Source: Octopus vulgaris
Lineage: Eukaryota
NCBI GenBank assembly: GCA_951406725.2
Contig: OX597824.1
Location: 50,096,001 to 50,160,000 of the forward strand
Reading direction: 5' to 3'
DNA: 64,000 nucleotides
In this document: one piece after another, positions 14,232 to 54,109 of the stretch
Numbering within the stretch: the stretch's first letter is position 1
Layout: each line of letters starts with the position of its first letter
Notes under the pieces: generated by a model
Told to the model about the DNA's origin: nothing
Database searches by the model: none
Seen by the model: only the letters and a program-made list of their open reading frames with translations
Program-made: the position numbers and the translations under genes

Positions 14232-15492
14232 CAAGGGTTGGACTAAATAATAGAAATACTTTAAAATTTAAAACAAATTTAATTTAATATGGGTTAGATC
14301 GCCTTTGGCAGTAATTCTACGAGGTATGGTTTTGTACGAAGTTTGAATTGTTTCCAAAGGAATTTGTGTCCATTCTTCAGATAAAACAGTCTCCAGTTCT
14401 TGTAATAATGATGGTAGGGGATATCGACTCCTTACTTGTTTTTCTAAAATGCGCCAAAAATGTTGAATAATATTGAAATCTGTGGACTGTGGCGGTCAGA
14501 TAAGATGTTCAACTTCACTAGAATGTTCTTCGTACCATTCAGTAACAACTTTAGCTCTGTGAATTGGTGCATTATCATCCTGAAAGATTGCGTTTTCCTT
14601 AGGAAACAGTTTCGCAAACATAGGATTAATTTGATTAGATAAAATGCTTAAATAGTCTTGATTATTAATTTTACCATGAAGGAAAACCATTGGGCTGGCG
14701 GATTTCCAAGATATAACCATCCAGATCATCACAGATTCTCCTACATGTTTAACAGTTGGAAGAAGGCAGTGTGGGTCAAATGCTTCTTTTGGTTGTCTCC
14801 ATACGTATACTCGGCCGGTGGTCGGAAATAAGGTAAAGTAGGACTCGTCTGAGAAAATAATATTCTTCCACTTCTCTAGGGACCAATTCTGTAGGGTTTT
14901 ACTCCATTCTAAACGCTTTGCAACGTTTGATTTTGAAAGTAGTGGTTTTCTGATTTAAGCCCTCCTGTGAATTCCGGCTTTGTGCAGCTCCTGGCGAACA
15001 GTTCTTATGGGAACTGGGTTCTCGAGGTGGTCATTAAGCTCTGCAGTAATTTCGGGAGCTGTACTTTTGGGATCTTTTCTAACAATTCGCGTAAGAGTCC
15101 GACGGTCCCTGTCTAAAAGTTTTGATTTTCTTCCAGAGTTTTGTTTCGACGAGGAGATTTTTCCCTCTTTCTCAAAGGCTGTCATTTCATTCGAATCAGT
15201 ACTTCTTGATACACCAAACATTTCAGCTGTTTTCGTTACGCTAGCGGCTGTCATACGAGTACCAACAATTCGACCCCTTTGAAAGTCCGATAGATCTGTC
15301 ATTTTAGTGAATTTTAATTACCTTTTTCTGATGATTGCTGAAAAGAAGCAGCAATTTTAGCAAAACATATTAAGCAACATTAATAATAAATCCCAAAAAC
15401 ATAAAAATAAACATGCTTTTGACGGTTTTACAGATATTTCAAAATTATGATGCTATGATGCTAGGTGTCTTCATTATTTTGTCCAACCCCAG
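14232..15492 (-). mobile_element. Full-length but inactivated Tc1-family DNA transposon
   Basis: TIRs agggttggactaaataat / attattttgtccaacccc; transposase pieces MTDLSDFQRGRIVG (HTH), IIFSDES, IFQDDNAPIH, SPDFNII; disrupted by stops/frameshifts. Confidence 0.93.
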
Positions 15493-15511
15493 CATATATA
15501 TATATATATAT

Positions 15512-16455
15512 ATTATATAAAAGGGCTTAGTAAAATAAATTACTTTGCCGCATACTGAACTCATTAGAAATAGCAGCTAAAAAACTTTTTTAAAGCTATT
15601 TCTAATACTTAAAGAAAATCTCTCTCATATAGTGTTTGCTTGACTCAACTCACAGAAGTTTGGGGGTAAGGACATCAAAAAATCAAATGCAAAGGTTATT
15701 TGAGAACGTACGTTTCAAGATTAGTCAAAACGACACTTCTATCATCAGCTCAGAAACTCCTTAGTTTGGATTTGAAAACACTGAAAGTAAGAACATACCC
15801 TTTCGAAGATCTGCTCGTAACTAACAGTGCCAACAAACTCAAATAAGCAAGCGAAGAATTTCTGTTCTCCCCTTTCCACCAGCGTGGGTTAAAATCATCA
15901 AACACTATGCTTATTTCGGTAAAATCCGAAGCATTAATTAGAGGGAGATTAATTATAATTTCAACAATTGAGGGTAAAATTAATTAATTATTAATCAATT
16001 TCACCAAGTGTTCAGTATGCAAAGGGACCATTCAAGGCGAATTCAAATTATTACATTATATAAAAGGGCTTAGTAAAATAAATTACTTTGCCGCATACTG
16101 AACTCATTAGAAATAGCAGCTAAAAAAAGATAGAAGTGTCGTTTTGACTAATCTTGAAACGTACGTTCTCAAATAACCTTTGCATTTGATTTTTTGATGT
16201 CCTTACCCCCAAACTTCTGTGAGTTGAGTCAAGCAAACACTATATGAGAGAGATTTTCTTTAAGTATTAGAAATAGCTTTAAAAAAGTTTTTTAGCTGCT
16301 ATTTCTAATGAGTTCAGTATGCGGCAAAGTAATTTATTTTACTAAGCCCTTTTATATAATGTAATAATTTGAATTCGCCTTGAATGGTCCCTTTGCATAC
16401 TGAACACTTGGTGAAATTGATTAATAATTAATTAATTTTACCCTCAATTGTTGAA

Positions 16456-16457
<2 letters not shown>
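15512..16457. mobile_element. HHR mini-element, family 1: 543-nt unit, head-to-head inverted arms in (TA)n
   Basis: 15512-15585 repeats at 16055-16128 (period 543); 16129-16457 is the reverse complement of part of the unit and crosses the unit junction. Confidence 0.9.
15701..15752 (-). ncRNA. Type I hammerhead ribozyme
   Basis: tgag-CTGATGA-tagaagtgtcgttttgactaatctt-GAAAC-gtac-GTT-ctca; palindromic loop 3; stem II imperfect. Confidence 0.75.
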
Positions 16458-16539
<82 letters not shown>

Positions 16540-16552
16540 GTATATATATATA

Positions 16553-16616
<64 letters not shown>

Positions 16617-19917: not shown

Positions 19918-19963
<46 letters not shown>

Positions 19964-20467
19964 GAAAATGCACATAAATGTGAAAAACTTGTAATTGTTT
20001 TAAAATAAATTTATTTTACATATATACCAAATTAGTTTCAGCAATATTTTTTGTTTATCAATGGTAAAAATTCAGAATTATGAATTAGAAAAATATATTT
20101 ATCAAACCGGGCAAAATAATTCATAAACTCTCTATTGGAACACCAGGCTAACAAAATTAGATTAGTGAAGAACACCAAGTAATCTTTTGGTAGGATTCCA
20201 AGTTATGTTTCATCACAATTCAAACTTGTAAATCCGTGGATGGGCTCCCGATAAACTGGTTTTTACAGTGATATAAAAAAAACACGTTCAAAATAGTGGT
20301 CACAGCATATAATATATATACATATACATATACAAATATATATATATATATAACAAAAGAGGGTGTGTATTTCCACGCATGAAAAACTATAGGCAAATTT
20401 GTTGTTGAAAATGCACAATAAATTTGAAAAACTTGTAATTGTTTTTAAATGAATTTATTTACATATA

Positions 20468-20509
20468 TACCAGACTAGTTTCAACAATATTTTTTGTTTA
20501 TCAATGGTA
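20468..20509 (-). ncRNA. Degenerate type I HHR in the PLE 3' repeat (second, more decayed copy at 20025-20066)
   Basis: tacca-TTGATAA-acaa..ttgtt-GAAAC-ta-GTC-tggta; stems present, CUGAUGA mutated. Confidence 0.55.
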
Positions 20510-21279
20510 AAAATTTTGAAATATGAATTAGAAAAAATATGTTTAAAAGTTTCAATGTTGACAAGTTTAAATGTTCATAACAGTCAATAATATAAAAACT
20601 GTGGATCAACTTGTTTAAAAGTTCTAAATTGAATAGTGTTAGTAGTGGCCGACAAGAAATGAATATCATCAAAGTTTCAGCGATTCTGAGTTAAAAGGGA
20701 GAAAAACAAGGGAGAAACGAAGATACTAAAAAGGGGGATTTGGTTTACAGTTTCTGTAAAATTCTCTTTCCGTCGTGCACAGGAACTTTCGCTTGAAACG
20801 GTGTTTTTTGGAATCCGGTGTATTTATAACTTTTTCCGCGAACGGATCTGATTTTGTGATTCCTTAAAGTACTGTTGACGTCTCGTTTTTCTGGCGGTCA
20901 AGTTTGTCGCTCTGCCTGATTAGCTTCGCTGTGGTGAACGGTCATCAGACGTTCCAGCTGATTAATTGTCTTAAAGTGTAATTTTGTTGTATTTGCTGAA
21001 GTTCGGTTTTGATCGTAGGTAAAATTTCATTGATCTAGATTTAGGTGACGTCAGCAACTAGTGTTTGTAAAATTTCATTGGTCTAGAGTTAGGTGACGTC
21101 GGCAACTGGTGTTTTTTTAATGTTGTTATTGCATGGTGATTTGGAGTTGCAGTTTTGAAACCCAGGCAGAAGACTCTTACTGAAGTTTTTAAAAATTGTC
21201 TGCTGCACATGTTTTTTTTTTTGTGTTGAAATTGAGTCTCTTTTCCTTTTTCTCTTTAGTGTTTTTTCGTCTTTCTCAA

Positions 21280-23240
21280 GGATGTTTATATTTTTTAATC
21301 AGCATGTTTTCCTTATTTAAACGGAATTGTGATGAAGTGTTTCCGGTGCATTGATAGAGAGGGAAGATTTGGTATTTCGGGTTTATGCTTACGGGAGTTT
21401 TCCTGGTCATGGAGTCTCGGATATTTTTGCCTGTGCATCGTTAGTCCGTCCGTCAAGGTTAAACCAGTTTGACCTATGTAGTTTCCACCACGCCCTCTAC
21501 ATTTGAGAACATAGATTAAGTTCTTCGAAGGACAAGTGAAGTGATATTTTATGGTAAGAGTTTGACCTGTCTTAAATTTGTATGGTGAGCCCTCTAAGAA
21601 GAAGATGCAAGCTCCGCAGTTAGGGCGGTTGCACTTTTTGACTAGTGGGTTTGTATTTTTAGTGGGTAATTTGGCGCTGGTGAATAACTTCTTTTAGGGA
21701 TTGCGGTCGTCTCTTGCTTTTATTAATCTTCTGTGTTTCCAGTGCCTTTTTCATTCGCATGTCCTTCATAAGGAGTGGTATGTTTTGGTGGATGATGTAT
21801 GCTTCCATGTTCCACGGATTATTTGTTGATACGGAGGATAAAGTTTTAAGTGTGCCATGGTGTTTTCTCGTTATCCCTAACTCTTGGATGTCTATCGTTT
21901 TTGCATGTTCTATTCCATTTTTGATTAGACTGGCCGAGTATTTTCTATCTAGCATTGTGTTTTCTTAGTTCTTGGAGTCGCTTTCTCGGGTTTCGGGATT
22001 TGATGCAATCGTGCAAATTCTTCCTGCTAAGTTGAAAGTTATATTTATTTTAGTATGTTTTGGGTGGCAGCAAGAGAATAGAAGATGTTGTTTTGACTCC
22101 TCCTGTTTGAAGAAGATGTTGGTTTCAATCTCATTTTCTTTTTTGATGATTAAGATGTCCAAGAAGGGTAGTTGTTTGTGGCTGTATTCCCTTGTGAACT
22201 GGATACTCTGGTTAATGCTGTTGATTAAGATTTTAAATTTTGAGAGTTGTTTAAGGTTATGTGGCCACAGAATGAAACAGTTATCCAGGTAGCGTTTCCA
22301 GTTGGTGAGTAAGTATTTTTGCAAGTTGTCTCCTAATTTCAGTCTAGTGAGCTCGTATATTTGGACTTCCAAGTATGCCATGACAAGGTTGGCAAAAATA
22401 GGGGCTACACTCGTTTCCATCACCGTGCCCGTTTTTTGTCAGTAAGTGTTCTCGTTGAAGTTGAAGAAGTTGTTCTTTAGGATGAATTTTATTCCTTCAA
22501 CGATGAATTCTTTTCCGATTCGGTCAGGAATGTCATTTGGGAATTTTTCCTGCCAATATCGTATGGCTATTATTCCGTATTCGTGAGGAATCGAGGTGTA
22601 GAGGTTTATTACATCGAATGAAATTAGAAGGAAGTCCTTCCTGGTTTTGTTCGGGAGATGGTTTAAAAAGTCCAGATCATTCCTTATAAAGCGCAGTATA
22701 TGTAGGAGAATATGTTTAAGGAGGACAGCAATAAAGGTACTGAATCTGTGTGTCTCACACGAGGGACCATCCACACTTAGTCTCATTTTGAGATCTCTCG
22801 GGTGTGGAATATTTATGATTATAGAAGTTGATCTGTTATAGGCTTCGTTTATGGCTTCACTTTTTGGGATTTTAGGAAGTCCATAAAAGTTTCTGGTTTT
22901 GCCGTCAAATCTAGTAAAGTAATTTTTCTCCTTTTCCGTTAAACCTTGTTGGAGCTAATGGATAAGGGTAGAAAACTTAGTCATTATCTTGGATTGACTG
23001 TAGTTGTTGATTTTTTCGTAGTAGGTATTGACTTGAAGGAGAATTAGAGTAGTGTTTATGTATTGTTCTGAGTCCATGATTACTACAGCACTCCCTTTAT
23101 CGGTTTCTTTTATAATTATATTATGATCCTCCTTCAGACCATTAATGATTTCCCATTTTTCTCGACTTGTATTTGTTTTAAGCTTTCGAGATGGGAGTAA
23201 ATTGTAGGGATAATTATTGACCAAATCACAAAAGTTATCC
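21280..23240 (-). pseudogene. PLE reverse transcriptase / GIY-YIG endonuclease pseudogene
   Basis: DKGSAVVIMD, SFDVINLYTSIP, METSVAPIFANLVM, KRYLDN, LPFLDILI, HPKHTK; manual translation gives KCNRPNCGAC linker and NLIYVLKC..NYIGQT; many frameshifts. Confidence 0.93.
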
Positions 23241-32602: not shown

Positions 32603-32607
<5 letters not shown>

Positions 32608-32949
32608 TATATGAAAGAATGGAGTTATTTTGTGCATTTTGATGTCGACATAAGTCCCTTGATTTTCCTGATGAGAAATCTGCATAATGTACTCCTTATT
32701 TCTTCGGAATTAGGAATATGCAGCCTTCGAAACATATGTCGAGAATAAAGGATATTTGTTAACTAGTCGTTCAACTCCATTCTTTCATATACTTATAATT
32801 TTTAAATAAACATACAAATTTCCGCACGAAGACACGTAGTCTATGTCCTAGGGACGTAGCTTCAACCGTGTTCTTTCTGATGTGAATTTGCTACCCAGGT
32901 ATCGGTTATCTTTCGAATTATCCTTAATAAGATAATTCATTCAATTACT

Positions 32950-32953
<4 letters not shown>
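32603..32953 (+). mobile_element. HHR mini-element with a short inverted left arm, in (TA)n
   Basis: tataagtatatgaaagaatggagtt (32603-32627) is the reverse complement of 32773-32797; (TA)n on both sides. Confidence 0.8.
32662..32746 (+). ncRNA. Type I hammerhead ribozyme
   Basis: attttc-CTGATGA-gaa..ctgcata...tatgcag..ttc-GAAAC-atat-GTC-gagaat; full core, three stems. Confidence 0.88.
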
Positions 32954-33058: not shown

Positions 33059-33981
33059 GAACAAACTTACTTAGAAATGGATGCGTGCGTTCTGTCGTAT
33101 AATAACAAATTAATGAATAAAACATATGCATATATGCATACATATATGTACGTACCTAAATCTACATGTATATATACATGCATATATGGGTACAGGACAC
33201 CAAAAAAAAAACGTTGAACAGAATGAGAAACGAAAACATAAACACAAAACCAAGGAAATGGACATTTTTCTTAAACAACGAAAAAATAGAGTACAGGATA
33301 AAGAACACAAGGAAAATTCTCCTTCTTCAGTCGCCTCCGTTTCATCTACTCCGCGTTTCGAAGGTCAAGGCGAGACGCGACTTCGGTGAAACATTCCTTC
33401 CCGCAAAAAGCAAATAAATAAAATTTGAGATTTTTTTGCGGAGGGGTAAAAATGGTAACAAAAACAGGACAGTAAAGACAGTACAAAATATAAACAGTAA
33501 AAGACAGGACAAGGAGAATAACAGTAACACAGACAAGGAGAGCTGTTAAGCCAAACGAGAGAAAATTTTACGAACGCTTTTTTTTGAGAACGGCGAAGGA
33601 GGCACAAAAAAGCCGTCTACACTCGAAGGAAGCTAGGTCAGGTAGACAGTAGTTTTCTTGTCGCTGACCAGCGACGGAACAGAGGAGGAGGAGTAAGAGA
33701 AAGGGAATGGTTGCAGAGAAAACAAGAAAGAATGAAGAATGAGAGAGAGGGAGGGAGAGACAGTAAGATAGAAGAAAAGGAAGTCAGAAAGAATGAAGGC
33801 TGAGAAGGGTAGTGGGACAGAAAGGTTAAGAGTGTGCATCATTAATATTAAGAACAAGCTTACTTAGAAATGGATGTGTGCGTTCTGTCGTATAATAACA
33901 AATTAATAAATAAAACGTATGCATATATACATACATATATGTACGTACCTACATCTACATGTATATATACATGCATATATG
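33058..33981 (-). mobile_element. Non-coding PLE-like element: 793-nt period, ~125-nt direct terminal repeats, carrying the scrambled HHR motif
   Basis: ttacttagaaatggatg...catgcatatatg starts at 33067 and again at 33860; left end in (TA)n. Confidence 0.75.
33319..33379 (-). ncRNA. Candidate hammerhead ribozyme with non-canonical (reversed) strand order
   Basis: cgcGTC-tcgcctt-gac-cttc-GAAAcgcg-linker-gaggcga-CTGAAGA-a-ggag; stems CGCGU/ACGCG, UCGCCUU/GAGGCGA, GGAG/CUUC. Confidence 0.6.
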
Positions 33982-34621: not shown

Positions 34622-35219
34622 TTAGGGTAGCAAGAATATTCATCGAAAAATTCTTTTTTTTCTCGCTAGACCACTGGTAACTAAGAATTTTTCGATGAAT
34701 ATTCTTACTACCTTAAGATTTTAATTAATGATAAAATGTTTTTTGGCTAATTCTGGAAGAAAATCGGCAATATTTTTATTTAGGGCTGGTTGAGTTCCGC
34801 TTCTGTGCAGTAAATTCAAAAAATTAGAACCTATAGACACGTGGCTGATTACTGATAGCTCCATGTCTATGGATTCAGTCTTGGAAACCTACTGAGGACG
34901 CAGCGCCAGATATAGACTGAAATGATCGTATTTCAATCTGTATTTAAGTCTGCAGAAACCTTGCAGGGTCTAGGATTAAGGTAAATGTTTTTATTTTTCA
35001 ATCACTTTCTGAATTACAACAATTGGTGGTTTGGAGTTTTAACTGCTCTTTCTAGCGAGTCATATATCCTATTCTTCAGGTATCTCTTTTGTGTTTGAAC
35101 GTAAAGTGTATTCTTCTCTGAATAATATATAGTCTATTGACTAATTTTTTCTCGCTAGACTACTGGTAACTAAGAATTTTTCGATGAATATTCTTGCTAC
35201 CCTAAGATATTAATTAATG

Positions 35220-35222
<3 letters not shown>
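34622..35222 (+). mobile_element. HHR mini-element, family 2: 489-nt unit with 33-nt inverted left arm
   Basis: ctcgctagac..ctggtaactaagaatttttcgatgaatattctt at 34662 and 35151; 34622-34654 is an inverted copy; right end in (TA)n; terminal segment homologous to 37631-38590. Confidence 0.85.
34888..34974 (+). ncRNA. Type I hammerhead ribozyme
   Basis: ccta-CTGAGGA-cgcag...ctgca-GAAAC-cttgcagg-GTC-tagg; long internal hairpin in stem II. Confidence 0.82.
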
Positions 35223-37298: not shown

Positions 37299-37301
<3 letters not shown>

Positions 37302-37568
37302 GTCATGTATCGCCTTGACCTTCGAAGCGTGGAATAGATGAAATTAAGGCGACTGAAGAAGGGGAATTTTCCTTGTTTTGTATGTCCTGTACTCTATTTT
37401 TTCGTTGTTTTAAAAAAATGTCCATTTCCTTGGTTTTCTGTTTATGTTTTCGTTTCTCATTGTGTTCGACGTTTTTTTTGTGTTCTGTACCCATATATGC
37501 ATGTATATATACATGTAGAGGTAGGTACGTACATATATGTATGTATATATGCATATGTTTTATTTATT

Positions 37569-37578
<10 letters not shown>
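37299..37578 (+). mobile_element. Truncated second copy of the 33058-33981 element
   Basis: Reverse-complement homology to ~33107-33384; (TA)n on both sides. Confidence 0.85.
37304..37364 (+). ncRNA. Second copy of the scrambled-order hammerhead motif
   Basis: catGTA-tcgcctt-gac-cttc-GAAGcgtg-linker-aaggcga-CTGAAGA-a-gggg; pairings retained, one core change (GAAA to GAAG). Confidence 0.5.
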
Positions 37579-37630
<52 letters not shown>

Positions 37631-37635
<5 letters not shown>

Positions 37636-38590
37636 TCAATATAGGGTAGCAAAAAATTCAATAGAAATTTTTTTCGCCACCAGCGGTCTAGTGAGAAAGA
37701 GAAAATAGTCAGAGACTATATATATAAATTCAACAACAATTGAGGAACGGCCTCAATAGACCATTCGACCCACTAGTAAGAGCAGCCAGGACTCAAACCG
37801 CCAAGTAGTAGTAATTCAGAAATTAAAGGAAAATTAAAAACATTTACCCTATTCATCTTTAGACAATGCATTGTTTCGACGTTTTTAATGGCAAACCAGC
37901 CTAATTAAATTAAATTAAACTTAATCAAGTCAATCTACCAAAGGCTACGTCTCATCGGTAAAGAAGCCAGGAGGGACAGATATACACGAGGCGGCAGTAT
38001 CTATGCCCCGGGAATATCTGCCCTAAAATTTTCAGACCCACCGTAATCGCGCCAAACTTATCAGCAGCAAATATTAACTGCTGATTCAATTTCAGAATTA
38101 GTCAGAAAATCATCAATTAATCAATAGAGGGTAGCAAAAAATTCAATAGAAATTCTTTCGCCACCAGCGGTCTAGTGAGAAAGAGAAAATAGTCAGAGAC
38201 TATATATATAAATTCAACAACAATTGAGGAACGGCCTCAATAGGCCATTCGGCCCACTAGAAAGAGCAGCCAGGTGGGTTTGAAAATTTTAGGGCAGATA
38301 TTCCCGGGGCATAGATACTGCCGCCTCGTGTATATCTGCCCCTCCTGGCTTCTTTACCGATGAGACGTAGCCTTTGGTAGATTGACTTGATTAAGTTTAA
38401 TTTAATTTAATTAGGCTGGTTTGCCATTAAAAACGTCGAAACAATGCATTGTCTAAAGATGAATAGGGTAAATGTTTTTAATTTTCCTTTAATTTCTGAA
38501 TTACTACTACTTGGCGGTTTGAGTCCTGGCTGCTCTTTCTAGTGGGTCGAATGGTCTATTGAGGCCGTTCCTCAATTGTTGTTGAATTTA
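37631..38590. mobile_element. HHR mini-element, family 2: 485-nt unit, head-to-head inverted arms in (TA)n
   Basis: gggtagcaaaaaattc at 37644 and 38129; 38273-38590 is the reverse complement of ~37720-38042. Confidence 0.9.
38352..38458 (+). ncRNA. Type I HHR with CCGAUGA core (mirror copy 37857-37963, minus)
   Basis: cttta-CCGATGA-gacgt...acgtc-GAAAC-aatgcatt-GTC-taaag. Confidence 0.82.
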
Positions 38591-38808: not shown

Positions 38809-38811
<3 letters not shown>

Positions 38812-40628
38812 ATTAGAAAAAAAACACCTTTTATCAATTCAAAATGAACAATTAAATTACACCATCTATCTATATATATATATATTTATGTAGTGTCCGG
38901 GTAGTGTTGTTGAACAAGTAATACTTAATATACTATTTTTACTATTTTTATTAATTTTATTTGATTCATGAAGTTTAGATAATTCCCGTATTTCATAAAT
39001 AAATTCCTTTTAGCCTTTTTCATTTATAGTTTTATTCTATTTTTCCACGCAACGTCTCCACTAGTTTTATTTCTTATAGACGCTAAAAACTATTTTTTTA
39101 CGTTTATAATCTAGCGATATCTTCTCAACTAACTTAGCAACGTTCTTTTCTCCTTTTCGTTTGGATTTTGTATTATTTTTGGATTAATGTTTAGCTGTGG
39201 TTAATTTTGTTATTGATATATTAATAGGTATCTGTTAGTTTTAGTTGTGTGTCTTCATATTAGTTTCTCCATAAGTTGTGCTTTTTTCTCACATTTTTTT
39301 AGTTCATGAGGCTTTAATGTTTTTTCATTTTTTCGTATTTTTCATTGATAAAAAAATTTGCCATTTCATTAAGTATTCATTCTATTTCTTTGCACTAAGT
39401 CTCCACGCGATAAATTTTATAAACGTTTTAACTGTTTACTTTAAAAATCAGTTACTCTTTCACTTCGCAAAGCTAAGTTTGACATTTTATCGTTTCTCTA
39501 TTTCATTATTTTTTGAAATATTATTATTTTTCTTGTTATTATTACTGTTGTTATTATATTATTATTTATTTATAATTTATTATTGTTATTGTTATTGACT
39601 GGTTTTGTATAGGACTATTGATTGTGATTGTATATCTTCTTAGTGTATTGTTCTTTGGTTCTAATATTTTTGCACCTTTCTTTAATTTTGGGGTTGATAG
39701 GAATTCTTACTTTCCATTAACATATTATTCTCACTATCATATCTTTATATATATATCTATAGGTATAAGTTACAATAGATATTAATTCCTATTTTTGGTA
39801 TTTTTTAATATATATATACATTTTTAGATATATATATATATATTTATATATAAAGGGATCTAACGAATTAAATTTAATTTGATTTAAGAATTTGTTTAGT
39901 CAGACAATATATTATTTAATTATTAGGTGGCTTATTTATTTGTGATATTTAATTTTAAGTTAATTTGGTATTATATTATTTGATATTTAGTCAACTTTGT
40001 TATAGATTCTTATATTAAATCTATAGATACTACACATGTATATTGATTATATAGTTAGCTTATTTAAGGAGTTTGTATATATTTGAACCAATGTTTTATT
40101 TTAATTCCAATTTAATGACTTGTACAAGATTTGTGTACTTTACTTAATTTTAAAGTATTTAATAATTTAAGTATTGTTTTAGTCTTCACTTATGTATATT
40201 TAATATTTTCATATATATATATATTAAAATATATTTATAAATTAATTATTTTATTGTTCTAATTTATTTTTAACCTGATGAGTGACTATATTTTATCGAA
40301 GTGATTTCTCTACCACTATAATCATTTCTTAAATATAGCCACGAAACACGTGTTGTTATTCTACAAATTATATACGTTATTATTATTATTATTTTTTTGC
40401 AATTTACTTAATCATTGACATTTTATTGTTATTTTAATGTTAATATTTATATTATATGTAATTTTCTAGATGATGTAATTTAATTGTTCATTTTGAATTG
40501 ATAAAAGGTGGGATTTCTTTCTAATTTTTTATAAATAAATTATATTGTGTGAAATTTGATTTAGCATTTCCAAATTGAATTTTTTCTTGTAAGTTTTGGA
40601 TTTTATTCCCTCAAATAATAATAATATT
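38809..40628 (+). mobile_element. Longer AT-rich HHR element with ~58-nt inverted left arm, in (TA)n
   Basis: 38810-38867 is the reverse complement of ~40467-40525; right end attccctcaaataataat. Confidence 0.75.
40271..40358 (+). ncRNA. Type I hammerhead ribozyme with long stem II
   Basis: taac-CTGATGA-gtgactatattt...aaatatagccac-GAAAC-acgt-GTT-gtta. Confidence 0.85.
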
Positions 40629-46058: not shown

Positions 46059-46433
46059 CACACATACACACATACACACACATACACACATACACACACA
46101 TACACACACACACATGATATGATGGAATATGTCGTCGTTAGCTTAGCTCGTCAAAATTTCAAAGCCACTGTGAACACCATTCTTGTATAAGAATAATAAT
46201 TTGTAGTCTATAAAAGTCTATAGCAGAGGCTGGGGGTCCCGCCTCCTAGGCACTCAGTTCTTTATAGTAGTATATGTACTATAGTATAAAAGATTATAAC
46301 TGAAAATAAAATAATTAATATATATATATAGCAAAAAGGATATGTACTATAGTTTCTAATGCAAACACCAGAGACACACGACTACAAGAACTAAAAGATA
46401 CCTTCATCACCAGGAACTATCCACCTTCACTTA

Positions 46434-47138
46434 TTGACTCAACTCAACATCCAGGAACTGAGACATCCCAAATCAAAGAAAAATTTACGACCAAAAGCCT
46501 TACCATACATCTCCACACACAACCCTCTCAACAATGAAGCCTTCGACACCATCCTCCAAAACATACCTCTCCTAAAAAAAGACCACAGAATGAACACAAT
46601 CCTCCAAACACACACGATCATAAAAATCAAGAGACAGCCTAAATCTATGAAAAGTCTCCTAACACAAGCCCGAATACACTCTTCATCACAGAAGCCGACA
46701 GTAAAAAGATGTGGAAGACCTAATTGCGGGATATGCGATTATCTAATTGAGGGATCAGAGTTCTCCTTCAAACAGGGACAACGGTTTACAGTGAAAAGCA
46801 ACTTCACATGTGCTTCGGAGAACCTGATATACACACTAACCTGCTCTGGGTGTCAAGAGCAGTACATAGGCCAAACAAAAAATAGTTTGCGTGAAAGAAT
46901 GGCCCTGCACAGATCCCAGATAAGAATTCCCCAAAACAGAAAAATAGCATTCAGCCAACACATAGATACTTGCGCCAACAACAAAACACCAAGCTTCAGG
47001 ATTTTCCCCCTCTACCAATTCAGGGACGATACAACCTCGAGACAACGAATAAGTAAAGAAACTCTCTTTATTCCAAAATACAGGCCTCTTCTTAACGGGT
47101 CTACGACAAACGATATATACACCTCAGCTTTAGAATAA
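46434..47138 (+). pseudogene. PLE C-terminal fragment: Cys linker plus GIY-YIG endonuclease (open frame, RT missing)
   Basis: RCGRPNCGICDY; ENLIYTLTCSGCQEQYIGQTKNSLRERMALHRSQI; KETLFI..LN. Confidence 0.92.
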
Positions 47139-48310: not shown

Positions 48311-49101
48311 ATCAATAATTGAGGGTAAAATTAATTAGTTATTAATCAATTTCACCAAGTAGTGTTCAGTATGTAAAAGGACCATTTAAGGCGTATTCAA
48401 AATATTATATTATATAATTAGGGCTTAGTAAAATAAATTACTTTGCCACATACTGAACTTTCTAGAAATAGCAGCCAAAAAGTTTTTTAGCCATTTCCAC
48501 TACTTTAAGAAAAATTCTCCCAGATAATGTTTACTCAAAAATAACTCACGAAGATATGGAGGTAAAACAGTAAAATATCACAAGTACAAAGATCATTTGA
48601 GAACGTCACGTTTCTAGATTAGCCGAAATAAAACACAGCATTCCTTCGTCAGCTCAACATTTCTTAATTTTCGATTTGAAAGCACTAAAAGAATGAACAT
48701 ACCCGTCCGGCGATGTATCACCTCAGACAAACACCCTCAAACTGCCAGTACTAGCAAATTCAAAATGTACAAGCGAAGATTCATGTTCTTTCCTCTACCA
48801 CCCACGTGAGTTATCTAGTAAACATGCTATAACGGTGAGAACCGTAGTAACAGAACAGGGAGAAAGGAATTATAATATCAATAATTGAGGGTAAAATTAA
48901 TTAGTTATTAATCAATTTCACCAAGTAGTGTTCAGTATGTAAAAGGACCATTTAAGGCGTATTCAAAATATCATATTATATAATTAGGGCTTAGTAAAAT
49001 AAATTACTTTGCCACATACTGAACTTTCTAGAAATAGCAGCCTTCTAGAAAGTTCAGTATTTGGCAAAGTAACTTATTTTACTAAGCCCTAATTATATAA
49101 T
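48311..49101. mobile_element. HHR mini-element, family 1 variant: 566-nt unit plus 59-nt inverted arm, in (TA)n
   Basis: atcaataattgagggtaaaatt at 48311 and 48877; 49043-49101 inverted; colinear homology with 15512-16457. Confidence 0.9.
48597..48657 (-). ncRNA. Type I hammerhead ribozyme
   Basis: ttgag-CTGACGA-aggaatgctg...cggctaatcta-GAAAC-gtgac-GTT-ctcaa; stem II imperfect. Confidence 0.72.
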
Positions 49102-52569: not shown

Positions 52570-52570
<1 letters not shown>

Positions 52571-53312
52571 CAATAATAATTCTCTAAAAGAGATATAGAC
52601 AGTAACTGCTCGATAACATAAGGGACTAAAGCCATCTGAATATGGCTAGGGACAGGGCAGGGTGGTGGGGGTGTTACTGTTGCATTTAGCCCCAGGCGAA
52701 CATCGACGTCACCAGAAAGGCTAGACACCGTCACGGTGTCCTTATCCTGCAAAGGGAGGTAATTCCCCGATGAAGCGGAAACCACACACGGACCATGGTT
52801 TCAAGGTGTATTGCCTATCGTCGGCGTGTGGTAGGCTTCCGCTTCCTCGACGAATTCTCACTCTGCAGGATTTTCACATATAGATTTTCAAGCAAAATAC
52901 ATTTGCTGATTTCGAAAATCTGTTCGAAAGCAATAATAATTCTCTAAAAGAGATATAGACAGTCCCTTATGTTATCGAGCAGTTACTGTCTATATCTCTT
53001 TTAGAGAATTATTATTGCTTTCGAACAGATTTTCGAAATCAGCAAATGTATTTTGCTTGAAAATCTATATGTGAAAATCCTGCAGAGTGAGAATTCGTCG
53101 AGGAAGCGGAAGCCTACCACACGCCGACGATAGGCAATACACCTTGAAACCATGGTCCGTGTGTGGTTTCCGCTTCATCGGGGAATTACCTCCCTTTGCA
53201 GGATAAGGACACCGTGACGGTGTCTAGCCTTTCTGGTGACGTCGATGTTCGCCTGGGGCTAAATGCAACAGTAACACCCCCACCACCCTGCCCTGTCCCT
53301 AGCCATATTCAG
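52570..53312. mobile_element. HHR mini-element, family 3: 360-nt unit as a near-perfect head-to-head inverted duplication
   Basis: gcaataataattctctaaaagag at 52570 and 52930; 52961-53312 is a circularly permuted reverse complement; the same 50-aa N-terminal spurious peptide appears on both strands in the ORF track. Confidence 0.92.
53103..53176 (+). ncRNA. Type I HHR with long stem I and CCGACGA core (mirror copy 52772-52845, minus)
   Basis: gaagcggaa..accacacg-CCGACGA-tagg caataca cctt-GAAAC-catg-GTC-cgtgtgtggtttccgcttc. Confidence 0.85.
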
Positions 53313-54109
53313 AACCTTGAACTTTGCTCTGCATGGACACTAGGTTTTAACGTTCTAGTTTCTACTATTTGCAGCAGTGCTTGGAAGCAAGGAGTGTAGA
53401 GTGTGGTCGTCGTTTTGACCATGACAGAGAAAGTTGTCAAGGCGATGCCTGTTTAGATGTCTACGCAAAGTTACAGAAAGTGTATGATGAGTTGTGTATG
53501 AGCCGCACACAAGTGTACGAGTCGTTCAGACGTTTCCAAGATGGTCGAAAAAATGTCAATATTGACGAACGTTTTGGGAGACCCGCAACCAGCAGAACTG
53601 AGAAAAAACATCGCAGATGTGCTGTGAGAGGAAATCGTCGAATCCTTATCCGTGAGTTATCAGAAGATTTGCAGATTAGTTATGGTTCAGTTCAATTCCA
53701 TCATCACAGGGGATTTGGGTATGAGATGCGTGTCTGCCAAGTTTGTGCTAAAACTGCTTTCAGCTGACCAAAAATACACTCAGGTTTCAGTTGCAAAAGG
53801 TCTTGATTGTGTGGAGTACGATGAAAACATTTTGAAAATTTTGCGTGGGTCTCTGAGCAGATATCGCCAAGCTTTTGGAAACATTTGTTGCAGATTGTCT
53901 GCTCAACTTTGTCATGGACAATGCGACGATCACACACTACACGCCTTCCTTCCCAGCACTGTTGTAAACAGCAGAAGTGAGTTAGAATGTTAAAACTTAG
54001 TGAGCATGCACAACAGAGTTCAAGGTGAATCTGTTTCAAGCGGCTTTACTCTGCGTGCCTCAGCTTTGTTACTATGGCAACAATCCGGATACTTATTGAT
54101 CAGAGCACG
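53313..54109 (+). mobile_element. Internally deleted mariner element with long TIRs; left end missing
   Basis: HTH remnant LQKVYDELCMSRTQVYESFRRFQDGRKNVNIDERFGRP; 53313-53357 inverted at ~53982-54026; right end ggatacttattgatcagagcacg-TA. Confidence 0.88.

What the first reader, a model, noticed from the sequence alone, without database searches (positions are those of the whole stretch)
15512..16457. Two fixed 3' end points used in complementary pairs
Seen: one arm ends at site A (..TACCCTCAATTGTTGAAAT) and the other at site B (..AAGCCCTTTTATATAAT), ~96 nt upstream in the unit. The homologue at 48311-49101 uses the same two ends with long and short arms swapped. Elements at 37631, 38809 and 32603 also have ends ~90-155 nt apart. 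B often lies at an internal TATA-like run. Established: PLE pseudo-LTRs can differ by a short 3' tail. Inference: the two target strands prime reverse transcription separately, one at the RNA end and one internally by pairing with (TA)n.
Basis: partly seen in the sequence, partly recalled or inferred. Interest (0 to 1): 0.7.

Follow-up and report, generated by a model that had tools for sequence, protein, structure and literature searches.

The report
Paired start sites in Penelope insertions
Mirror-image insertions of Penelope-like jumping genes in this genome almost always end at site A on one side and site B on the other, which likely means both cut DNA ends are copied from one RNA at two separate internal start points, a known feature now shown to follow a strict pairing rule.

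Summary
15512-16457 is a head-to-head insertion, in (TA)n, of a non-coding 543-nt tandem unit with a hammerhead motif (retrozyme-like Penelope derivative). In four families, 93 of 101 independent two-arm copies pair one A end with one B end; 3 are A+A-like, 0 B+B, 5 other (at most 50% expected). All 33 further B-anchored copies with a partner had an A partner. Both arms carry the same haplotype (1163 vs 9 diagnostic sites), and in 48 of 91 the B arm reaches further than the A arm, so it is not a fold-back copy. A is not the RNA end: arms read through it and some ends run past it. B mostly lies 2 nt beyond the TATATA run (463 vs 125). Best model: coupled priming of both target ends at two internal sites of one RNA. 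The one-sided tail and two internal starts are published (Craig 2021; Frangieh 2024). I did not find the strict pairing, single-template evidence or 94-160-nt tails in print. The scan noted inverted Penelope ends elsewhere, without this tally.

The parts
15494..15511 (.). left (TA)n target flank
15512..16127 (-). left arm, family 1: unit positions 374-543 then 1-446; outer 3' end at B (15512)
15705..15748 (-). type I hammerhead motif (CUGAUGA, stem II with U.U at base, GAAAC-GUAC-GUU, stem I GAG/CUC); activity untested
   Evidence: 0.1 matches per shuffled window; below Rfam gathering score
15958..16054 (-). internal copy of the B-to-A tail, reading through A into the next unit at 15957
16129..16457 (+). 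right arm, unit positions 215-543; outer 3' end at A (16457); 100% complementary to the left arm where they overlap
16323..16348 (+). predicted weak hairpin (GGC..GCC) followed by CU, 12 nt 5' of B (16360)
   Evidence: (z -0.12, not significant)
16361..16457 (+). 97-nt tail between B and A, present at this end only
16410..16442 (+). predicted hairpin (GGU..ACC) followed by CU, 15 nt 5' of A; stem length varies between copies while the distance to A stays fixed
   Evidence: (z -2.5)
16458..16613 (.). right (TA)n target flank
48311..49042 (-). family 2 homologue (566-nt unit), long arm ending at A; hammerhead motif at 48602-48652
49043..49101 (+). family 2 short arm ending at B
32606..32953 (.). 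family 3 pair: about 21-nt B arm (minus) plus A arm (plus) with a GUC hammerhead motif at 32668-32740; pLTR of an autonomous Hydra-like Penelope element
37633..38588 (.). family 4 pair (485-nt unit, no hammerhead motif found): A arm left, B arm right ending in an internal (TA)5 run
38811..40626 (.). family 5 pair: short B arm left, long A arm right

Best explanation
These are Penelope-like-element insertions whose two arms end at A and B in complementary pairs and share one haplotype, likely because both ends of a break in (TA)n prime reverse transcription on one RNA at two internal sites that bracket the tail. Shown: A+B pairing, either orientation, one haplotype, independent 5' truncation, read-through of A, (TA)n on both sides. 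Inferred steps: (1) an RT/GIY-YIG protein supplied in trans, probably as a dimer, binds an uncut multimeric or circular RNA over the tail; (2) it cuts both strands of (TA)n, which is its own reverse complement, so the two 3' ends are equivalent and orientation is random; (3) one active site takes B and the other A, each about 10-19 nt 3' of a stem base ending CC-CU, with 1-6 nt of AT microhomology setting the exact register; (4) the two cDNAs stop independently, or together at a common RNA 5' end, and are joined head to head by end joining; (5) if one priming fails, a single arm ending at A or at B results.
For: 93 of 101 two-arm copies A+B, 0 B+B. 33 of 33 B-anchored copies with a partner had A. 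A-left 41 vs B-left 50 of 91. Arms agree at 1163 of 1172 diagnostic sites in family 1 (385 differences expected at random) and 153 of 155 in family 2; arm-to-arm divergence 0.6% vs 3.9% between elements. The B arm reaches further 5' than the A arm in 48 of 91, the A arm in 24; both stop within 10 nt in 19, an excess in families 1 and 3 (9/30 vs 1.1, 9/28 vs 1.9 by permutation). Single arms end at A or B (family 1: 11 A, 8 B). 75 of 108 arms cross the hammerhead site and only 3 start at it. In vitro, the anole element cuts and extends both strands, starts at two internal sites that bracket the tail, and is predicted to be a dimer (PMC11167929).
Against: Eight exceptions in 101: three A+A-like (L084, L116, L187, the last with mirrored flanks) and five with an end elsewhere. 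A shared haplotype could also come from two RNAs of one dominant source locus, or from gene conversion between arms. The excess of equal 5' ends is absent in families 2 and 4. The B hairpin is not significant by folding energy, and families 3 and 5 show no clear GG..CC-CU stem at B. The protein that mobilises family 1 was not identified. No biochemistry or RNA ends for these families. Frangieh et al. saw no strand difference in start site and did not test coupling.
Confidence: 0.68

Rival explanations
1. Both arms start at A, or one cDNA is made and copied, and the endonuclease or repair then trims the tail from one arm at B while resolving the intermediate (as Craig et al. 2021 suggest for the tail).
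For: It gives a tail on one end only. Craig et al. attribute the tail to EN-mediated resolution. The D. virilis EN needs the tail region for DNA recognition (cited in PMC11167929). B is more scattered than A, and 19 of 91 pairs have equal 5' ends as a fold-back would.
Against: In 48 of 91 the B arm holds sequence that the A arm lacks, so it is not copied from it. Single arms ending at B are common (8 of 19 in family 1). In vitro RT starts directly at both tail borders.
Confidence: 0.14
2. Same coupled two-site priming, but each subunit carries its own RNA, both from one dominant source locus.
For: It avoids copying one stretch of RNA twice. One element (L018) has three clustered diagnostic differences between arms. 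An earlier scan note reports arms from different parents in another family (unchecked).
Against: Only 1 of 34 family-1 elements with at least 5 informative sites has two or more differences, although elements differ by about 4%. Ten elements share private variants across both arms. Two separate RNAs do not explain why A and B exclude each other, nor the shared 5' ends.
Confidence: 0.1
3. One reading: A is the RNA 3' end, and B is chosen by base pairing of an internal TATA-like run with the (TA)n target.
For: A is sharper than B. B falls in a (TA)5 run in family 4 and at TATA in family 3. 125 family-1 copies end in the TATATA run. A-ended source copies would give A-(UA)n transcripts.
Against: Read-through of A in tandem arms and into the ORF leader, and ends with unit-specific bases past A. 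A-junction type is not inherited. 463 copies end 2 nt past the run. The TATAT tract at unit 327-331 was not an outer end in the family-1 sample.
Confidence: 0.06

Closest known systems
Penelope-like element inverted pLTR insertions with an optional 'tail' (Arkhipova 2013 PMC3846280; Craig 2021 PMC8557442)
   Same: Head-to-head 5'-truncated arms, partial tandems, a tail at one end only, (TA)n targets.
   Different: The published tail is 30-40 bp and called optional or often one-sided. Here it is 94-160 nt and follows a near-strict rule (93/101; no B+B). The passages I read attribute it to endonuclease resolution or self-priming.
Poseidon PAc of Anolis, internal initiation (Frangieh 2024, PMC11167929)
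   Same: Two internal RT start sites bracket the tail, 3' of a hammerhead; both target strands are cut and extended; uncut RNA is the substrate; dimer predicted.
   Different: They report no difference between strands and no pairing statistics. Their site is an AC-rich stem-loop not homologous to the target; here both sites are AT-rich with 1-6 nt microhomology to (TA)n. Different clade, longer tail.
Metazoan non-LTR retrozymes (Cervera and de la Pena 2020 PMC7229834; Li 2026 bioRxiv 10.64898/2026.07.22.740005)
   Same: Non-coding, low-GC tandem units with a type I hammerhead, derived from pLTRs.
   Different: Units here are 543-566 nt (150-450 quoted) with a GUU triplet. Term searches of both papers found no description of inverted insertions, and none of a tail in the bioRxiv paper. 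Circular RNA not shown here.
Hydra clade of PLEs (Craig 2021, section 11)
   Same: Family 3 ORF has DKT, an RW motif, CxxC and CxH around the EN, no CCHH, a canonical hammerhead and a (TA)n target; its relatives carry the CxCx5C linker.
   Different: In the copy read, the linker is replaced by an Asn-rich stretch and the ORF is frameshifted; no tree was built.
LINE-1 twin priming (recalled, not read here)
   Same: Both target ends prime on one RNA and give an inverted junction.
   Different: In L1 one primer uses the poly(A) end and the second a variable internal site, so the pieces do not overlap. Here both sites are fixed and internal, and the arms overlap in sequence.

Membership tests
EN+ Penelope-like elements | Single ORF with PLE-type RT and GIY-YIG endonuclease | tested here: inconclusive
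   Family 3 has an RT plus C-terminal EN ORF by motif and alignment, with no Pfam hit. Families 1, 2 and 4 are non-coding units; family 1's partner was not found.
EN+ Penelope-like elements | Partial tandems (pLTR) and inverted 5'-truncated arms | tested here: met
EN+ Penelope-like elements | [quoted passage not shown] | tested here: met
   93 of 101; length 94-160 nt rather than 30-40
EN+ Penelope-like elements | Hammerhead motif in the pLTR | tested here: met
   Families 1-3 by pattern, family 5 by eye; none found in family 4; none reaches the Rfam threshold
Non-LTR retrozymes | Non-coding tandem units each with a type I hammerhead core | tested here: met
   Up to 7 or more units per arm; core conserved across copies
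Non-LTR retrozymes | Self-cleavage and circular RNA | not testable with these tools
   Only contigs of runs not on record as RNA
Hydra clade (family 3 only) | DKT and RWK motifs, no CCHH, CxxC/CxH in the EN, (TA)n target | tested here: met
   (RW-L rather than RWK)
Hydra clade (family 3 only) | CxCx5C linker | tested here: not met
   Replaced by an Asn-rich stretch in L185, present in relatives such as P0001
Hydra clade (family 3 only) | Placement in the clade by RT phylogeny | not tested
   No reference Hydra sequences were fetched

The most novel reading that the evidence does not exclude
Penelope-like elements integrate by obligate two-site twin priming: a dimer straddles the tail of a single circular or multimeric RNA, its two reverse transcriptases each locked to one stem-loop-defined start, so that one RNA is copied twice at once into both ends of a double-strand break. 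The 'optional' tail and inverted arms would be the fixed footprint of this third kind of target-primed reverse transcription, with inter-site spacing free to vary from about 35 to 160 nt.
Probability: 0.5. Interest if true: 0.72.

Novelty: new variant of a known kind. Interest (0 to 1): 0.52.

Why it matters
How Penelope-like elements make their inverted and tandem insertions is named as an open question by Craig et al., and Frangieh et al. leave the steps after initiation unvalidated. A near-strict A+B rule with single-haplotype arms turns the 'optional tail' into a quantitative prediction: the two primings are coupled and mutually exclusive. This can be tested at once in the existing in vitro system. 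It also ties retrozyme arrays mechanistically to PLE machinery, and shows that a retroelement can synthesise into both ends of a break without conventional second-strand synthesis, which bears on RNA-templated gene insertion tools.

Tried and rejected
Chance or independent choice of ends: rejected. Assembly fold-back artefact: it would mirror ends and flanks; only L187 looks like that. Fold-back copy of the A arm as the general route: rejected by 48 of 91 longer B arms. Hammerhead-cut linear monomer as template: rejected, 75 of 108 arms cross the site. Inherited A-(UA)n tail: no lineage signal (modest power, slippage could blur it). Rfam gathering scan found nothing. Exact pattern for family 4 found only 3 matches, so a BLAST-type search was used, which favours copies like the window's. 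Family 5 gave only 2 further visible two-arm copies, both A+B, among 29 other loci; flanks were short and these were not counted. No RNA holder listed; contigs of four guessed-RNA runs cannot show ends. The autonomous partner of family 1 was not found. No dimer prediction was obtained. Five literature searches found no paper reporting pairing statistics; subscription papers (e.g. [quoted passage not shown] Frangieh's supplementary figures gave no text hits and may show related data.

Full report
Observation. The element at 15512-16457 lies between two (TA)n tracts. It has a minus-strand left arm (15512-16127) and a plus-strand right arm (16129-16457), fully complementary where they overlap. 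Read in the element's sense, the left arm is unit positions 374-543 followed by 1-446 of a 543-nt tandem unit and ends at B. The right arm is 215-543 and ends at A, 97 nt further on. The homologue at 48311-49101 has the ends swapped (98 nt). The elements at 32606, 37633 and 38811 are also A+B, with spacings of about 157, 94 and 99 nt.

What the elements are. The family-1 unit is non-coding and carries a type I hammerhead motif (15705-15748), conserved across copies. The pattern occurs 3 times in the window against 0.1 per shuffle, but does not reach Rfam's threshold. A 29-nt anchor has 2098 exact matches in the 2.8-Gb genome. Family 3 (32606) is the pseudo-LTR of a 3.5-kb autonomous element with an RT and C-terminal endonuclease ORF. 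Its motifs match the Hydra clade as described by Craig et al., though Pfam gave no hit and no tree was built. Named protein hits are from cephalopods. Families 1 and 2 are retrozyme-like non-autonomous derivatives; their partner protein was not identified.

The census. Family 1: all clusters behind the first 100 anchor matches on contig C1 gave 31 two-arm copies, all A+B (17 B-left, 14 A-left), and 19 single arms (11 A, 8 B); one further partial hit at a locus edge was dropped. Family 2: the first 30 matches, 14 clusters with opposite-strand matches and 15 further one-strand clusters; about 20 later one-strand clusters were not fetched. Seven copies with identical junctions and flank were collapsed to one, leaving 23 of 27 A+B; the exceptions are L084 (A+A), L116 (A minus 15 + A), L110 and L141. 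Family 3: 28 of 31; exceptions L187 (A+A with mirrored flanks), L160 and L181. Family 4: 11 of 12 among top BLAST hits, a biased set. Total 93 of 101, no B+B; independent choice gives at most 50% (P about 1e-19). The window's own five elements are not in this count. A separate, biased set gave 9 A+B (the window's included) and 4 A+other of 13. As an independent test I fetched 40 B-ended arms on C2-C4: 33 had a partner, three of them 9-13-nt stubs, and all 33 ended at A (one 8 nt short); 5 were single and 2 ran beyond the fetched stretch.

Are the arms made separately? In 91 clean A+B copies the B arm reaches more than 10 nt further 5' than the A arm in 48, the A arm further in 24, and both stop within 10 nt in 19. 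A B arm that holds sequence absent from the A arm cannot be its fold-back copy. Equal 5' ends are in excess in families 1 and 3 (9/30 vs 1.1; 9/28 vs 1.9; none of 20,000 permutations reached this) but not in families 2 and 4. Inner junctions mostly show a few bases of overlap or gap, as end joining would leave.

One template. Arms of one element differ by 0.6%, like tandem units within an arm (0.45%), against 3.9% between elements. At subfamily-diagnostic sites they agree 1163 times and differ 9 times where 385 differences are expected; family 2 gives 153 vs 2 (51 expected). Gene conversion or one dominant source locus cannot be excluded. 75 of 108 family-1 arms cross the hammerhead site and 3 start at it, so the template is uncut multimer or circle, not a cut linear monomer.

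Is A the RNA end? The data say no. Tandem arms read through A into the next unit (75 junctions in family 1). In family 3, A continues into the leader with an ATG 49 nt later. Some ends include unit-specific bases past A (8 nt in L206, 5 in L213, 9 in L161). The two family-1 junction spellings (31 and 23 ends) do not follow lineage. The sequence at A offers 2-4 nt of TA microhomology, just as B does.

Is B set by pairing? In part. Family 4 ends in its (TA)5 run. In family 1, 463 copies keep the AAT after the TATATA run and 125 end in the run; the latter is an upper bound, since slippage can erase the extra A. Other ends spread to about 10 nt further. A 5-bp pairing with one G.T wobble is possible at the main site, so pairing may set the register. 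A TATAT tract at 327-331 was not an outer end in the sample. In families 1 and 2 both sites follow a predicted stem closing GG..CC plus CU, 15 nt (A) and 12 nt (B) upstream. The A stem is significant (z -2.5) and varies in length while the distance to A is constant; the B stem is not significant. Position measured from RNA structure is therefore an inference.

Mechanism. The simplest account is coupled twin priming: a double cut in self-complementary (TA)n, two RT active sites holding A and B on one RNA, two cDNAs joined head to head. Trimming of one arm by the endonuclease, and two RNAs from one source, remain possible.

Comparison. I read parts 1-2 of 4 of PMC11167929 (abstract, main text, start of methods) and term-searched its supplements without hits. 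I read passages and section 11 of PMC8557442, passages of PMC3846280, PMC7229834 and PMC6431247 (nothing relevant), and part 1 of 5 plus term hits of the 2026 retrozyme preprint. A one-sided 30-40-bp tail on inverted insertions, and two internal RT starts with both strands extended, are published. In five searches I found no pairing statistics, single-template evidence or tails of 94-160 nt; older subscription reviews were not available. Earlier scan notes describe inverted Penelope ends as ordinary; one prompted the haplotype test.

Verdict. New variant of a known kind, interest 0.52.

Noticed in passing
L086, L087, L089, L100, L105, L140, L142: One short family-2 A+B insertion recurs at seven places with identical inner junction and the same flank beyond B, so it was re-amplified as a composite; L086 holds two copies facing each other.
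   Followed up: partly
window 34622-35221: Family-4-like pair; the right arm ends at A, while the left arm is only 34 nt and stops just after CCCTAA in a non-TA flank. Possible A+A or interrupted copy.
   Followed up: no
window 52570-53313: 680-bp near-perfect palindrome with a 58-nt inverted stub at its TA-flanked left end; the right end abuts a Tc1/mariner-like sequence (53314-54026).
   Followed up: no
window 33059-33916 and 37299-37577: Another inverted family whose two TA-flanked ends lie about 50 nt apart in the unit; the arms are 3.4 kb apart with other insertions between.
   Followed up: no
window 19961-23200: Decayed RT and GIY-YIG-like reading frames on the minus strand with a 143-nt direct repeat and two TA-flanked ends.
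   Followed up: no
window 46395-47138: GIY-YIG endonuclease frame with an upstream CxxC-type finger (PF01541, 22 bits, just under cut-off).
   Followed up: partly
window 14496-14954: Tc1-like transposase fragment on the minus strand next to the element (recognised by eye).
   Followed up: no
L185 1914-4055 and L184: The autonomous family-3 ORF carries Asn-rich stretches, one replacing the Zn-finger linker before the endonuclease, recalling the N-rich inserts of Adineta Penelope elements.
   Followed up: partly
family 1 unit position 153 (L018, L126, L128, L132, L268, L270, L271): Several arms appear to start at the same position 153 with similar non-unit sequence upstream, probably a subfamily with a divergent segment rather than a truncation hotspot.
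   Followed up: no
L283, L291, L077: Arms with seven or more near-identical tandem units, compatible with rolling-circle reverse transcription.
   Followed up: partly
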